Notes under the pieces: generated by a model
Told to the model about the DNA's origin: nothing
What the model saw: the letters and a program-made list of their open reading frames with translations, nothing else
Databases searched by the model: none
Made by a program: the position numbers and the translations under genes
Shown: positions 6,590 through 58,702 of the stretch, in pieces
Position numbering within the stretch: position 1 is the first letter of the stretch
How the letters are laid out: each line of letters starts with the position of its first letter
Source of the DNA: Octopus vulgaris
Lineage: Eukaryota
Reading direction: 5' to 3'
DNA: 64,000 nucleotides
Assembly (NCBI GenBank): GCA_951406725.2
Contig: OX597819.1
Span: 56,606,001-56,670,000 of the forward strand

Positions 6590-6800
6590 AGTTAATCCAA
6601 ACATGAAAGCACATAGAGAAAGCACAACAACGCGAGGACGTGGAACAAGTATAGTGTTATTGGACGCTCAGGAAAGAAGGAGGGTTTAACGTTTCGAGGG
6701 GAGGTCTTCGTCAGAAACATAGGCAAAGGAAAGATCCAAAGAAGGGAAGACGGAGGTAAAAAATCACCAACGGTAAACACACGGTCACACTTTGAATGAC
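6590..6800 (-). mobile_element. Penelope-like pLTR fragment beside (TA)n with minimal hammerhead motif
   Basis: Minus strand 6718-6684 reads GTTT-CTGACGA-AGACCTCCCCTC-GAAAC-GTT-AAAC. Same family as 28803-28962. Confidence 0.65.
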
Positions 6801-6912
6801 GGGAAGGGAATGGGTGAAGAAAAACTTCTTTCAAAGACAGGATAGAGCAAGAGGAGGTATGTGAGTGTAAGTTTGGATATATATATGTATATATAGATAT
6901 ATATCTTTCTCT

Positions 6913-7320
6913 CTTTTCTCTCTTTTATTTGTTTCAGTCATTTGACTGCGGCCATGCTGGAGCACCGCCTTTAGTCGAGCAAATCGACCCCGGAACTTAT
7001 TCTTTGTAAGCCCAGTACTTATTCTATCGGGCTCTTTTGCCGAACCGCTATGTGACGGGAACGTAAACACACCAGCATCGGTTGTCAGGCAATGCTAGGG
7101 GGACAAACACAGACACACAAACACACACACACATACATATATATATATACATATATACGACAGGCTTCTTTCAGTTTCCGTCTACCAAATCCACTCACAA
7201 GGCATTGGTCGGCCCGGGGCTATAGCAGAAGACACTTGCCCAAGATGCCACGCAGTGGGGCTGAACCCGGAACCATGTGGTTGGTTAGGAAGCTACTTAC
7301 CACACAGCCACTCCTGCGCC
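6913..7320 (-). mobile_element. tRNA-derived CORE-like SINE, family A (full length)
   Basis: tRNA-like head, CORE-like TGGCATCTTGGGCAAGTGTCTT, central (TA)/(TG) tract, and tail GGCGGTGCTCCAGCATGGCCGCAGTCAAATGACTGAAACAA. Multiple near-identical copies occur in the window. Confidence 0.9.
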
Positions 7321-8181
7321 TATCTCCCTGTTATTCAACCTATTTTTATATTATTGTCTCCCTATGTATATATATATAGTTATGTATATATACATATATA
7401 TGTGTGTGTATGTATATATGTACGTATGTATATGTGTAGCAGTGGCCACCAGGCGCACTGAATGAATTTTTGCCTTTTAATTCATCAACCGTGTATAAAT
7501 ACATTACACATGATGCATGAGTGCGTTTCTCTTAATTAAATACTACGGTATTTTAAACATGTTTTACTAAACATTAATACGGCTGCTTAAATTTTTCATC
7601 CGTAGATTCTCAAACTATCAATCAATCCCTCATTAGTTAAATACAGTTAAAGATCATCGAGTATTTACTAATTCGCCAATCCTTTCAAATTATTTTATTA
7701 CACAGTATACTCGCGTATCGGGCAAGTTTCTGTTCAGCACGATCCTCAACACACACGCGCACGCGTGCATATGCAGACACACGCAGACACATGCGCACAC
7801 ACACACACTTACGCGCATGCACACATCAAGTCAGGCCCACAAACGCACGTGCTCAAAAATTATACAGACACAAACACAGAACATTATTTTTAATAGGATT
7901 TCTTATCGCCTGTAATATCATTATTGTCACGCACTCCCATTTGTATGATATCCTATTGAATATACAAATAGGTTCTCAATTGTAGACTGGATTTGGGTAT
8001 CACATGCTATTCCAAATATTAACTAATATGATATACATGTTATCTCAAATATGAAATAATAGGATATATGCGTGTGCGTGAGTGTGTATATATATTTATA
8101 TATACACATACATATATAAGTATATATATATATATATATATATATATATATATATATATATATATATATATATATATATAT

Positions 8182-8540
8182 AGTAAAATTTAGAGTCAGA
8201 TGAATATGGTACTTAAGTTAAAGGCACCAGAATTTAGTATGGTATTATCCATATAATTCAAAATGTAGCGATTATAATCAAAATTAGCAACAATGATATC
8301 CAGAGGTAATGCAGTACGATTGTTTCATGCGACTCCATTTAATTGAACAATGCAAACATTACATTAATTTAAAATGTAGACCAATCTTCAGCTGCATAAA
8401 AATATACAATTTAGTAAAATTCAAAGGATCCATCTGTATAATTTTTCATTTTATCCAAAATCGCAAAGAGGATAAGTAGATATACAAAGAACATGTTTTA
8501 TCAACACGTCACAGTTATCAATTTATTATCTATATATACA
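8182..8540 (-). mobile_element. Penelope-like pLTR insert next to (TA)n
   Basis: Abuts a (TA)n tract and contains the hammerhead motif at 8309-8397. Confidence 0.55.
8309..8397 (-). ncRNA. Type I hammerhead ribozyme-like motif, long stem II
   Basis: Minus strand ATGCAG-CTGAAGA-(58-nt stem II region)-GAAAC-AATC-GTA-CTGCAT. It has a 6-bp stem I, both core boxes and a GUA triplet. Confidence 0.65.
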
Positions 8541-8559
8541 TTGCTTATATACTTCATTC

Positions 8560-55490: not shown

Positions 55491-56277
55491 CATACAAACA
55501 TATAATCATAATCGCTTTAAGGTTCCACTAACACGGGTGGTTTTTTTTAAATGGAATATCAAAGGTTGTCAACTATGTTTAAAAAAAGCCTTCTTTTGGT
55601 AAGCCGCATCTAACCCGCCTTACGCTCGCATTATCACTTCACACTTGTTGCGGGTAGGGTCATTGCTTTCATTGAAAGACCATCTCTATACAAATTGTTG
55701 ACAGGAGCTTCCTAACGGACTAAATTTAGCTAATGCATGCCCTATAGTACTTTTTCCAGCTCTCACTGGTTAAATGAACTCTCGATGTTTGCCTGGCAAA
55801 CGCTTTATTATCTACAAGCATTTGTAGATTTTATTTGAAGTGAAGGGGTTAGTTCTCTTGAGTTAATCAACGCATTTCGATTGATTCAGTTTCTAGTCTC
55901 GCAGTTTATCAAAATATAAAAACGGAAACGATTTTCACCTCCTTACAAAGCAACTTAGCAGCAGTTTTCCACTTAGTTACCGGAAAACGCGACCATAATT
56001 CAGGTACTTATTTGAATGGTTCCTGGCAGCTTGTCATGATTCTGATTTATCTATGGTTTGCATTTTTTTTCTTTACTTAACCTCTCTCATCCTTCACTTC
56101 TCTCTCTCACTGTTTGTCAGAGAAAGTGCACTGAGGGGGTGAGCCTTCTCAGTAATAATGGGCTCATGTTTCCTTAAGCAATTTGTCAAAGATTAAATTA
56201 TGGAACATTCTTCGAGATAATTTAGAACATGTTGAGTTACGAGTAAAGAGTAAAAAAAGAGAAAGAAATTTGAATAT

Positions 56278-56528
56278 TGCAAAGGTGTACATTATAAAGA
56301 TCTACCATAACTGCGTTAGACTGTAGGTACGAGAGACATAAGAAATAGAGAGAGAGAGAGAAAGAATGAGAGAGAGTGCGTGTGTATGCACGCGCGCGTG
56401 TGAAAGAGGAAAGAGATATTTGGACAGAAAGATAGGTAATGCATCAGAACTTTTAGAATGTTTCGGAGTAACTATGCTACAAAAATGAAATCAGATGAAA
56501 AGATCGGAATTTTTATTTTCATCCAACT
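56278..56528 (+). repeat. Local duplicate, copy 1
   Basis: Highly similar to 60589-60958 apart from microsatellite length. Confidence 0.9.
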
Positions 56529-56989
56529 ACATTTTACAATGTAGCACCCTGAGTATAATATGCTTTTTAAAGCTTAGTCCGACTACGAAAGGTAAAGCTT
56601 GTGGGTGCATTCGAGGCAGCGATGACTTGTTGGGACACGATGCTCTTAGAAATATGACCCAAACCGAATGCATGTAACAATCTGGTTTCCGCTAAAGGTA
56701 CTCATTTGCTTCAGATTAAATCTACTTCTCTCGGTATCTATAAAATAATTATTACTCAATCGGTTGATTGAACCAGCTATATATGTCTTACTCATTGTTA
56801 TTAGCGGAGATGAATACATTGAAATCATTCTTTGATCCACAACTGTAGTTTGTGAAAGAGGAGGCTTTCAGAGGATTGAATCGTTTCTAGTACATAATCT
56901 GACGAAATAAAGAAGTTGTCCACAAGGGAATAAAACACAGGGCCAGAAAATATTAATAGCATCCAATAATACAAAAAAAAAACAACCCC

Positions 56990-57483
56990 TTTTAAAGACT
57001 AGCCAGGCTCATGGGCCGAGTTTTCCGGTTTCTATAGCGCATGTTTTCACCAGGTGGACGGGACGCCAGTCCATTGCAGCGTTACTCATTTTTGTCAGCT
57101 GAGTGGACTGGAGCAAGGTGAAATGAAGTGTTTTGCTCAAGAACACAACGCATCGCGTGGTCCAGGAATCGAAACTACAATCTTACGATCATGATGCTAA
57201 CACCCTAACCACTAAGCTACGCGCCTCCACAAATAAATGCGCCCATTTAAACCTAGCCAGGCTCATGGGCCCGGTTTCCCGGTTTCAATGGCGTATGTGT
57301 TCCCCAGCTGGACGGGATGCCAGTCCATCGCAGCGTTACTCCTTTTGCCAGCTGAGTGGACTGGAGCAACGTGAAATGAAGTCTTTTGCTCAAGAACACA
57401 ACGCGTCGCCCGGTCCAGGAATTGAAACCACAATCCTACGATCATGATGCTGACACCCTAACCACTAAGCCACGCGCCTCCAC
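56990..57483 (-). mobile_element. Two tandem copies of SINE family D
   Basis: Copies at 56990-57230 and 57250-57483, each with a tRNA-like head and a GCGATGGACTGGCRTCCCGTCC segment. Confidence 0.9.
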
Positions 57484-58541
57484 AATAACATCCAATAGTG
57501 TAAATTATAACATGTTTTGTCTACTGATCTTCCGTTTCCTGCTTCTCACACACCTGAAAATGAAGTGATTAATGTAGTTGTTTTTTATATTGTTCAGAGC
57601 CACACATCTTGGGCTTAGAGAAGTCGGTTGCTTCGATTCGAGAAGCGATAAAATGAAAGATGAAGACCACCCCGATGGGACTTGATTTCACTATGTAAAG
57701 GTACTCATCTAAATAGACTACCGCATTCTGTTCGTGGCACTACAAAATCCGCTGACTCACCGCAATAGAAGTCAATAGATTAATCGACAAAAATAAAAAG
57801 AGTTTTATCCTAAGCACACACAAAAAAAAATCACTTGAATTTTATAAAATTTTTCTTCAAACCTCTGGTCTTCAGTTAATAGAATAAATCAATAATTCTA
57901 GTTTTTAACTAACTTAGTTCTTTTTGCTTATTACTTCAAAAACCTACTGCAGCGTTTTTCCAAAAATATATCGCAGAACAGATTTTAAACATAAAGACAG
58001 CTTATCTAGATAAAATAAAATCGTACTATAACTCATGTTAACGTAAAATAATAAATACATAAATATTTCAGAAACTCTAACTATTATAGAACTAATTTCA
58101 AGTGAACTCCAAGAGAAAGTAAAAATGCTTAACATATTAAAATCTTTACGTAGTTAAACCTTAACATAGCTGCAACCCGTTTATCTTTTCTCCAAATATT
58201 TTTCTCTTTTTTTATATATTCATATATGATAATCTTCCTTATCACATAGTTTGAATTTGCCACGTTTTAGACATACATACATGTATACATATATATTTAT
58301 ATCTATGTATATATATATATACATATATATATATATATGTATATGTATATATATATATATATATTTATATATATATGTGTCTATATATATACCTGCATAT
58401 GTATATAAATATGTGAATTTTCCCTATATACATATATATATATCTATACACACACACACATATATATATATATATATATATATATATATATATATATATA
58501 TATATATATATATATATATATATATATATATATATACATAT

Positions 58542-58702
58542 ATGGGGAGAATTCACAAGAAAACAAAAGACGAAAACAGAAGGTGTAGACAGCAAACAGA
58601 TGTATTAGTTTAACACTCGGGAAGTGAAAAAGTCTTTAACGTGTCGAGCCTACGCTTTTCTATAGAAAGGAACACGGAAAGAAACAGGGAGAGAAAATAA
58701 AG
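58542..58702 (-). mobile_element. Penelope-like pLTR fragment beside (TA)n with decayed hammerhead
   Basis: Minus strand 58669-58634 reads CTTT-CTATAGA-A-AAGC(GTAG)GCTC-GACAC-GTT-AAAG; both core boxes are mutated. Confidence 0.5.

What the first reader, a model, noticed from the sequence alone, without database searches (positions are those of the whole stretch)
6590..58702. Several distinct short inserts, mostly in (TA)n, all carry hammerhead motifs with palindromic stem III
Seen: hammerhead-like cores at 6684-6718(-), 8309-8397(-), 28900-28934(-), 39709-39759(-), 42027-42077(+), 42658-42693(-)/43155-43190(+), 55013-55054(+) and 58634-58669(-), and weakly at 49346-49395(+). The flanking sequences fall into about six unrelated types. 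The stem III region is self-complementary or nearly so (AACGTT, ACTAGT, CGATCG, ACCGGT, AACTAGTT), and several motifs are followed by AATAAA. Established: Penelope-like elements carry minimal type I hammerheads that can cleave as dimers, and retrozymes are non-autonomous hammerhead retroelements. Inference: a dense, diverse, microsatellite-targeting ribozyme-retroelement system, about one motif per 7 kb here.
Basis: partly seen in the sequence, partly recalled or inferred. Interest (0 to 1): 0.8.

Follow-up and report, generated by a model that had tools for sequence, protein, structure and literature searches.

The report
Penelope hammerheads, one at the cap
The motifs are hammerhead RNA motifs, predicted to self-cut, in the ends of several Penelope-like jumping genes that insert into TA repeats, a known kind; in the youngest family hundreds of copies start at the hammerhead's first letter, and copies joined straight to a TA repeat carry an extra G there, which likely means the element's capped RNA begins with the ribozyme and is copied uncut.

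Summary
Nine of ten listed motifs are real and belong to six high-copy repeat families; 49346 is single-copy and probably chance. One missed motif lies at 61024-61066. Only four window copies keep an intact fold (0.10 expected). Five families (A, A2, C, D, E) lie downstream of Penelope-like RT/endonuclease sequence, and B is the pseudo-LTR of an intact Hydra-type element. So these are Penelope-like element (PLE) ends, a known kind, not retrozymes; only the missed family G is retrozyme-like (341-364-nt tandems). New in family B: about 525 head-to-head mini-insertions turn round at the first base of stem I; 18 of 22 independent copies joined there to TATAT carry a non-templated G; a TATA box lies at -29; 0 of 30 ORF-bearing copies start at the cut site. 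The capped RNA likely begins with the hammerhead and integrates uncut, so cutting would decap it. B also carries a 3.1-kb microsatellite-like 3' UTR. About 20,000 copies of A2 have an A6U core; this scan noted that before on other DNA of this genome. Cleavage, cap and expression are untested.

The parts
39623..39875 (-). Family B inverted arm with the long 3' end (+137 from the first base of stem I), joined to (AT)21
39709..39759 (-). Family B type I hammerhead, intact, identical to 42027-42077
39886..42026 (+). 5'-truncated microsatellite-like 3' UTR of the Hydra-type element (96% over 2,249 nt to intact copy L280)
41998..42003 (+). TATAAA, 29 nt upstream of the first base of stem I (inferred promoter)
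42027..42077 (+). Family B hammerhead: 6-bp stem I, CUGAAGA, U.U plus 3-bp stem II, GAAA, 4-bp stem III with ACUAGU loop; predicted cut after 42071; 42027 is the inferred transcription start
42078..42092 (+). Family B short 3' end (about +66), joined to (AT)n
6591..6850 (-). Family A solo end in (TA)n; hammerhead 6684-6718 with stem II broken in this copy; upstream limit approximate
28748..28962 (-). A-related solo end; hammerhead 28900-28934 has G at position 17
58546..58753 (-). Family A2 solo end; hammerhead 58634-58669 decayed here; family core CUGUNGA (A6U); limits approximate
42446..43239 (.). Family C inverted insertion, two arms
43069..43205 (+). Family C hammerhead with long stem II: CUGAUGA 43088-43094, GAAA 43174-43177, position 17 at 43185
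54964..55189 (+). Family D solo end with a short inverted piece; intact hammerhead 55013-55054 with U3-A8 core and AACCGGUU stem III
8183..8548 (-). Family E solo end; hammerhead 8309-8397 with long stem II, one stem II pair lost here
60965..61207 (+).
49346..49395 (+). Single-copy hammerhead-like string, rejected as probably chance

Best explanation
The motifs are type I hammerheads, predicted to self-cut, in the terminal repeats of at least six Penelope-like retrotransposon families that insert into (TA)n, and in family B the element's RNA likely starts, capped, at the first base of the hammerhead and is likely copied into the genome uncut. Shown: family membership, linkage to RT/endonuclease sequence, (TA)n joints, two fixed 3' ends, the pile-up of 5' ends at the first base of stem I, the extra G, the TATA box. 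Inferred: the element's protein nicks (TA)n on both strands and starts reverse transcription at two internal sites downstream of the hammerhead (about +66 and +137 in B), one for each nick. On a long tandem RNA this gives 5'-truncated 3' ends such as the window's 2.2-kb arm; on the first 137 nt of the capped RNA it gives cDNAs that run to the cap, gain a C opposite it and join each other by 2-4 nt of complementarity, giving 200-bp palindromes. The palindromic stem III would let two hammerheads cut as a dimer; in B the cut lies 45 nt from the inferred cap, so cutting would take the cap off the mRNA. Old copies then decay neutrally.
For: B: intact tandem L280 = hammerhead, 713-aa ORF, 3,066-nt UTR, hammerhead; unit 5,387 nt; Hydra motifs RWR, DKT, CxCX5C, CxxC, CxH as in PMC8557442 section 11; its hammerhead has the CUGANGAU..UGAA ACAG..CUGU pattern of that paper's File S2. 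D continues at 95-97% identity into a Neptune-type ORF in L251, L252, L253, L258, L259; E follows a Hydra-type endonuclease in L331, L335, L344, L346; A in L248, A2 in L320, C in L249 (one locus each). Exact genome counts with reversed-pattern control: A-type 5,231 v 0, non-A6 type 19,948 v 0, B 3,936 v 0, D-type 1,054 v 9, G 220 v 0. (TA)5 within 250 nt downstream: A 26/30, A2 20/30, B 28/30, D 28/30, E 23/29, G 12/19 against 20-32% in distal windows. 20 of 20 fetched close pairs have one long and one short arm; both ends recur in independent runs. 1,051 strand matches, about 525 insertions, with the two cores 3-10 nt apart. TATAT-N-stem I: G in 19 of 23 sites, 18 of 22 after removing a local duplicate; template has T, target would give A; 76 of 76 arms with templated upstream have T; a joint with the same extra base stands in run X15 (table 5c). 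TATAAA at -29. 0 of 30 ORF-bearing copies start at the cut, 28 keep the core. Extra G as a cap mark is described for L1 (PMC11702581, passage); uncut RNA as the substrate and two internal start sites for a Poseidon element (PMC11167929). Two-molecule folds of B and D give the double-hammerhead form, 12-14 kcal/mol below two monomers.
Against: No cleavage, cap or transcript was observed; no holder run is on record as RNA. The control for the extra G is not clean: among 6 sites starting one base later, 3 also have G, which fits a second start site but also an RT that adds C at any stop. The 27-nt junction class (20 of 52 listed insertions, hand count) fits cap-C pairing but also a 1-nt error in a palindrome. 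No within-family covariation in C (222/500 shuffles as high); single-motif folding z-scores are -1.4 to +0.3; the family A dimer did not fold as a double hammerhead. A, A2 and C are tied to an ORF by one decayed locus each. C shows no (TA)n enrichment (7/23 v 13/46). E, A2 and G show no sharp 5' boundary, and A's boundary shows a G in 1 copy only. The samples for A, B, D, E, G were best-scoring hits, which favours intact 3' ends. No tree was built.
Confidence: 0.8

Rival explanations
1. The pile-up at stem I is a structural stop, not an RNA start: the RT falls off after unwinding the hammerhead, adds a C by terminal transferase activity, and the AGCT palindrome favours joining there.
For: AGCT lies in the 5' strand of stem I and 19 of 52 listed junctions are the perfect palindrome (hand count); 3 of 6 starts at +2 also carry G.
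Against: TATAAA at exactly -29; single-arm copies joined straight to (TA)n start at +1 in 23 sites v 4 at +2; junctions further upstream show no G excess by eye; an ORF-bearing copy, L313, has the same (TA)n-G start.
Confidence: 0.2
2. The inserts are non-autonomous retrozymes that spread through small circular RNAs.
For: Family G: same-strand hammerheads 341-364 nt apart in 6 of 50 loci, unit folds at z -4.9, no linked ORF in 50 loci, two stem III palindromes ACAUGU and ACUAGU only among the first 100 of 220 listed.
Against: For A, A2, B, C, D, E the sequence upstream of the hammerhead runs into PLE coding sequence, and no short tandem unit was seen.
Confidence: 0.1
3. The hammerheads are no longer catalytic and are kept as a fold bound by the PLE protein or as promoter sequence.
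For: The most abundant type has U at position 6 in 96 of the first 100 listed; changes at A6 lower activity (PMC3088659, PMC7151607, for A6C); catalytic mutants still insert in vitro (PMC11167929); integrated B copies come from uncut RNA.
Against: Across unrelated families the core, the 3-8 pair (C-G in A, B, C, E; U-A in D, G), a non-G at 17 and a palindromic stem III are all kept; in A2 positions 7 and 17 vary between subfamilies while G8-A9 is kept in 96 of 100.
Confidence: 0.2
4. The motifs are chance matches in AT-rich DNA.
For: A relaxed descriptor gives 8.3 hits per shuffle against 21 seen; 49346 is single-copy.
Against: Strict descriptor 4 v 0.10; generic genome pattern 10,494 v 967 control; every family majority fits the fold.
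Confidence: 0.02

Closest known systems
Minimal type I hammerheads of metazoan PLE pseudo-LTRs (Cervera and De la Pena 2014, PMC4209133; parts 1-2 of 4 read)
   Same: Type I fold, extra base after A9, palindromic stem III, mostly single dispersed copies, pairs on opposite strands, U3-A8 variant
   Different: The parts read do not report A6U, a stem II of 60-80 nt (C, E), or a hammerhead at the RNA's capped start; the paper proposes cutting and circularisation of precursors, whereas B copies derive from uncut RNA
Hydra clade of PLEs, incl. Hydra-1_Obim (Craig et al. 2021, PMC8557442; sections 6, 11, 15, passages and parts of the supplement read)
   Same: Protein motifs, C-terminal GIY-YIG without CCHH, (TA)n targets, hammerhead pattern, inverted arms with a tail on one side
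   Different: Listed Hydra elements are 1.1-3.0 kb; B is 5.4 kb with a 3.07-kb microsatellite-like 3' UTR and E has about 2-2.6 kb; B's hammerhead differs from that of Hydra-1_Obim; tail about 70 nt, not 30-40
Poseidon element of the green anole (Frangieh et al. 2024, PMC11167929; parts 1-2 of 4 and passages read)
   Same: Two internal RT start sites giving the tail, AT-rich target, both strands primed, uncut RNA as template
   Different: That work is in vitro on T7 RNA and does not map a capped start; here the genome itself records the RNA 5' end at the hammerhead, and B's two ends share AT letters with the target
Drosophila virilis Penelope promoter (Schostak et al. 2008, PMC2377424; passages read)
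   Same: Transcript starts inside the upstream pseudo-LTR
   Different: TATA-less internal promoter, with an intron between start and hammerhead; B has a TATA box and the start at the hammerhead itself
Metazoan non-LTR retrozymes (PMC7229834, passages; bioRxiv 10.64898/2026.07.22.740005, part 1 of 5 and passages)
   Same: Family G only: about 360-nt non-coding tandem unit with a type I hammerhead, self-paired fold
   Different: The listed families are ends of coding PLEs; circular RNA not shown for G

Membership tests
PLE-type type I hammerhead | Core C3U4G5A6N7G8A9 / G12A13A14 with 3-8 pair, A15.1-U16.1, H17 | tested here: met
   Majorities of A, B, C, E (C3-G8) and D, G (U3-A8)
PLE-type type I hammerhead | A at position 6 (family A2) | tested here: not met
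   U6 in 96 of first 100 listed; A2 is filed as hammerhead-like variant only
PLE-type type I hammerhead | Stems I and II close the core; stem III short and palindromic | tested here: met
   palindrome swap in G; no within-family covariation in C
PLE-type type I hammerhead | Located in the pseudo-LTR of a PLE | tested here: met
   B, D, E several loci; A, A2, C one locus each; G none
PLE-type type I hammerhead | Self-cleavage | not testable with these tools
   no assay
Hydra clade (family B) | RWK-type motif, DKT, no GxKF | tested here: met
   RIRWR at 36, DKT at 116
Hydra clade (family B) | CxCX5C linker, C-terminal GIY-YIG without CCHH, CxxC and CxH | tested here: met
   positions 567, 603, 667, 695; homologue P0039 hits PF01541
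Hydra clade (family B) | (TA)n insertion and canonical hammerhead | tested here: met
   28/30; File S2 pattern
Hydra clade (family B) | Typical length under 3 kb (usual trait, not a diagnostic motif) | tested here: not met
   5,387-nt unit
Hydra clade (family B) | Placement in the RT tree | not tested
Neptune/Nematis-type PLE (families D, A, A2) | GxKF and DKG, CX2-5CxxC linker, C-terminal GIY-YIG | tested here: met
   D: all three in L252/L259; A and A2: linker and endonuclease only
Neptune/Nematis-type PLE (families D, A, A2) | Placement in the RT tree | not tested
   no tree
Non-LTR retrozyme (listed families) | Non-coding tandem unit of 170-400 nt | tested here: not met
   upstream coding sequence
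Non-LTR retrozyme (family G) | Non-coding tandem unit of 170-400 nt with a type I hammerhead | tested here: met
   341-364 nt in 6 of 50 loci, no linked ORF
Non-LTR retrozyme (family G) | Abundant circular RNA | not testable with these tools
   no confirmed RNA run

The most novel reading that the evidence does not exclude
In family B the hammerhead is a cap-proximal off-switch: a TATA promoter in the upstream repeat starts the mRNA at the ribozyme's first base, dimer-dependent cutting 45 nt later decaps it when element RNA is abundant, and only uncut RNA is translated and integrated. The genome records this as hundreds of cap-marked 200-bp palindromes, which would give PLE hammerheads a concrete job. 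The same element spreads 3 kb of TA-rich DNA that serves as new target.
Probability: 0.3. Interest if true: 0.75.

Novelty: new variant of a known kind. Interest (0 to 1): 0.55.

Why it matters
The function of PLE hammerheads is called unclear in PMC8557442 (section 15), and the origin of PLE inverted arms is unexplained there. A young family whose insertions record the RNA's 5' end, both RT start sites and the joining of the two cDNAs makes both questions testable with one element: map the cap, cut or not cut, and reconstitute. The long microsatellite-like UTR means some apparent host microsatellite fields are transposon cargo.

Tried and rejected
Rfam scan: the 150 rows shown of 356 were microsatellite-driven miRNA-type hits with no hammerhead family; 206 rows were not shown, so absence is not claimed. 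Pfam gave nothing useful for the Hydra-type ORF. Run search: no RNA holder listed; contigs cannot show RNA ends. A frameshift between RT and endonuclease in about 107 of 150 top Hydra-type hits (hand count; 37 of 41 motif matches) first suggested a defective subfamily; contigs of four runs list no deletion there, so it is more likely a homopolymer error of the assembly; not proven, as few listed contigs bridge the run with 31 letters on both sides. B as a non-autonomous element riding on several helpers: rejected once L280 showed the intact unit; the Neptune-type ORFs in L054 and L098 are nested in (TA)n. 5' ends at the cut site: 0 of 30. A permuted wiring for C, prompted by earlier scan notes on Naiads: not needed, C fits ordinary type I (87.8% paired v 34-47% slid; the structure was drawn from these sequences). 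A plain MAFFT alignment across families was uninformative. Sequence look-ups in earlier findings for B, C, A2, G returned nothing. Literature searches for a cap mark or start site at a PLE hammerhead (and scan notes), for octopus PLE hammerheads and for A6U found no report; the library lacks most subscription papers, and Lunse et al. (PMC5785218) on PLE hammerhead variants could not be read.
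Full report
Setting. The window is G000:C6:56606001-56670000 of a 2.8-Gb animal genome in 227 contigs, 35% GC and rich in TA/CA microsatellites. From its repeats I infer an octopod cephalopod; this is an inference.

Observation. All ten strings are present as written. Searching each against the genome gave families for nine: A (6684, and a related copy at 28900), A2 (58634), B (39709/42027), C (42658/43155), D (55013), E (8309). 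49346 found only itself. The B and C pairs are arms of single inverted insertions. A strict type I descriptor finds four sites, B twice, D and an unlisted site at 61030, against 0.10 per shuffle, maximum 2 of 300; the other copies are decayed, while the family majorities fit the fold. D and G have the U3-A8 core. In G stem III reads ACAUGU or ACUAGU in all of the first 100 listed of 220 exact matches. Exact genome counts, control in brackets: A-type 5,231 (0), same pattern without A6 19,948 (0), B 3,936 (0), D-type 1,054 (9), generic CUGANGA-N9-20-GAAACGUH 10,494 (967).

What the inserts are. B: locus L280 holds hammerhead, 713-aa ORF, 3,066-nt 3' UTR, hammerhead; unit 5,387 nt. The protein has RIRWR, DKT, YRDD, CNCHDKTTC, YIG, CDLC, CMH, the marks given for the Hydra clade in PMC8557442 (section 11 read), and 1,085 homologues at about 40% identity. 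Its hammerhead matches the Hydra pattern in that paper's File S2. The UTR is 65% covered by tandem repeats with 24 (TA)5+ runs, yet is shared between copies: the window's 39886-42111 matches it at 96%. D runs at 95-97% identity into a Neptune/Nematis-type ORF in five fetched loci. E follows a Hydra-type endonuclease in 4 of 25 loci, about 2-2.6 kb upstream. A, A2 and C each follow PLE coding sequence in one decayed locus (L248, L320, L249), weaker evidence. G has no linked ORF in 50 loci, forms 341-364-nt tandems in 6 of them and folds at z -4.9: retrozyme-like. (TA)5 within 250 nt downstream is enriched for all but C; only the A2 sample was chosen by position rather than score.

How B inserts. 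Arms end at about +66 or +137 from the first base of stem I (64 short, 60 long, 13 running into the ORF among held arms), each joined to (AT)n; independent runs show both ends. In 20 of 20 fetched close pairs one arm is long and one short. This is the tail that PMC11167929 (parts 1-2 read) traces to two internal RT start sites. Among the first 100 B motifs (58 insertions by my grouping) 18 insertions had two cores 4-8 nt apart; genome-wide there are 1,051 strand matches, about 525 insertions, about a quarter of all B motifs. Their centre lies in the 5' strand of stem I. Where such a start is joined directly to TATAT, the base between is G in 19 of 23 sites; I fetched 20 regions holding 21 of them, which with L313 and L414 covers all 23: flanks differ except for one local duplicate, giving 18 G, 3 A, 1 T of 22. 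The template has T there in 76 of 76 longer arms. P for 19 of 23 at one in four is 1e-8. TATAAA starts at -29. An extra G at the 5' joint of full-length L1 copies is read as the cap (PMC11702581, passage). Of 52 listed palindromic junctions 19 are the perfect AGCT join and 20 are one base shorter, as pairing of a cap-derived terminal TC would give (hand count); assembly error can also give the latter. Of 30 ORF-bearing copies none starts at the cut, 26 start upstream of stem I, 2 at it and 2 at +8 and +25 from the cut (two are units of one tandem). Against: 3 of 6 sites that start one base later also have G. Family A has its own boundary: 22 of 39 best hits start at query position 3-4, at a TCATTC (initiator-like, recalled consensus), with G in one only. 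E, A2 and G show none.

Mechanism. Shown: the anatomy above. Inferred: nicks in (TA)n prime two cDNAs at the two internal sites; on long tandem RNA they give truncated 3' ends, on the 5' end of the capped RNA they give the mini-palindromes; template RNAs are uncut. Two-molecule folding gives the double hammerhead for B and D, a partial one for G, none for A. The cut would fall 45 nt into a 182-nt leader with two upstream AUGs, removing the cap; that this regulates the element is a hypothesis (0.3).

A2. U6 in 96 of the first 100 listed; position 7 takes all four bases (about 19 A, 28 C, 13 G, 40 U by hand count) while G8-A9 holds in 96 of 100, and subfamilies differ in flanks. A6C is slow but active (PMC3088659 passages; PMC7151607 part 1 of 4). 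I found this before looking it up; seven earlier notes of this scan report it.

Comparison. PLE hammerheads with palindromic stem III, single dispersed copies and opposite-strand pairs are in PMC4209133 (parts 1-2); Hydra elements, (TA)n bias and an octopus Hydra family in PMC8557442; active PLEs in an octopus in PMC13282606 (part 1 and passages; no mention of ribozymes in the main text); 235 Hammerhead_1 hits in giant squid in PMC6962438 (passage); review passages in PMC6765202. I found no report of a cap mark or start site at a PLE hammerhead, nor of a multi-kb microsatellite-like PLE UTR; the library is limited, PMC5785218 was not available, and bioRxiv supplements and the unread supplements of PMC4209133, PMC11167929 and PMC13282606 may bear on this.

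Verdict. Observation partly confirmed; class known; the cap-anchored hammerhead, the mini-palindromes and the long UTR of family B are a new variant that makes an open question testable. Interest 0.55.

Noticed in passing
L098:4452-6800 (-); G000-wide: A very young Neptune-type PLE with an intact 775-aa ORF: 150 of 150 scored hits 100% identical over 182 aa; its hammerhead has CCGAAGA (U4C) and a U.U at the base of stem II. Not in the window.
   Followed up: partly
L094:4221-4260 region; L281:3336-3342: One-base-short C run splits the Hydra-type ORF in most assembled copies but is not listed in contigs of four runs; probably assembly error.
   Followed up: yes
window 60965-61207; L357: Family G, a 361-nt retrozyme-like unit with PLE-style inverted arms; helper unknown.
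   Followed up: partly
L248, L249, L320: The 3' UTRs of A, C and A2 also hold CA- or TG-rich microsatellite-like stretches.
   Followed up: partly
window 41998-42032: The same stretch also reads as branch-like CTAAT plus TAG|CTTC, a possible 3' splice site; no copy with a longer spliced exon was seen in 18 G-copies.
   Followed up: partly
window 59921-60362 and 34330-34515: Two further inverted repeats without a hammerhead match; possibly MITEs or other PLE ends.
   Followed up: no
window 30998-31477: 159-aa frame resembling the C-terminus of a mariner transposase (recalled resemblance).
   Followed up: no
window 36249-36671 (-): 140-aa frame resembling the end of a CR1/L2-type LINE ORF (recalled resemblance).
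   Followed up: no
window 52151-52517, 53435-53801, 6908-7324 and others: Two abundant SINE-like families, one as 184-bp tandem pairs, often beside the PLE ends.
   Followed up: no
window 2068-2143: Short degenerate TAACCC (telomere-like) run.
   Followed up: no
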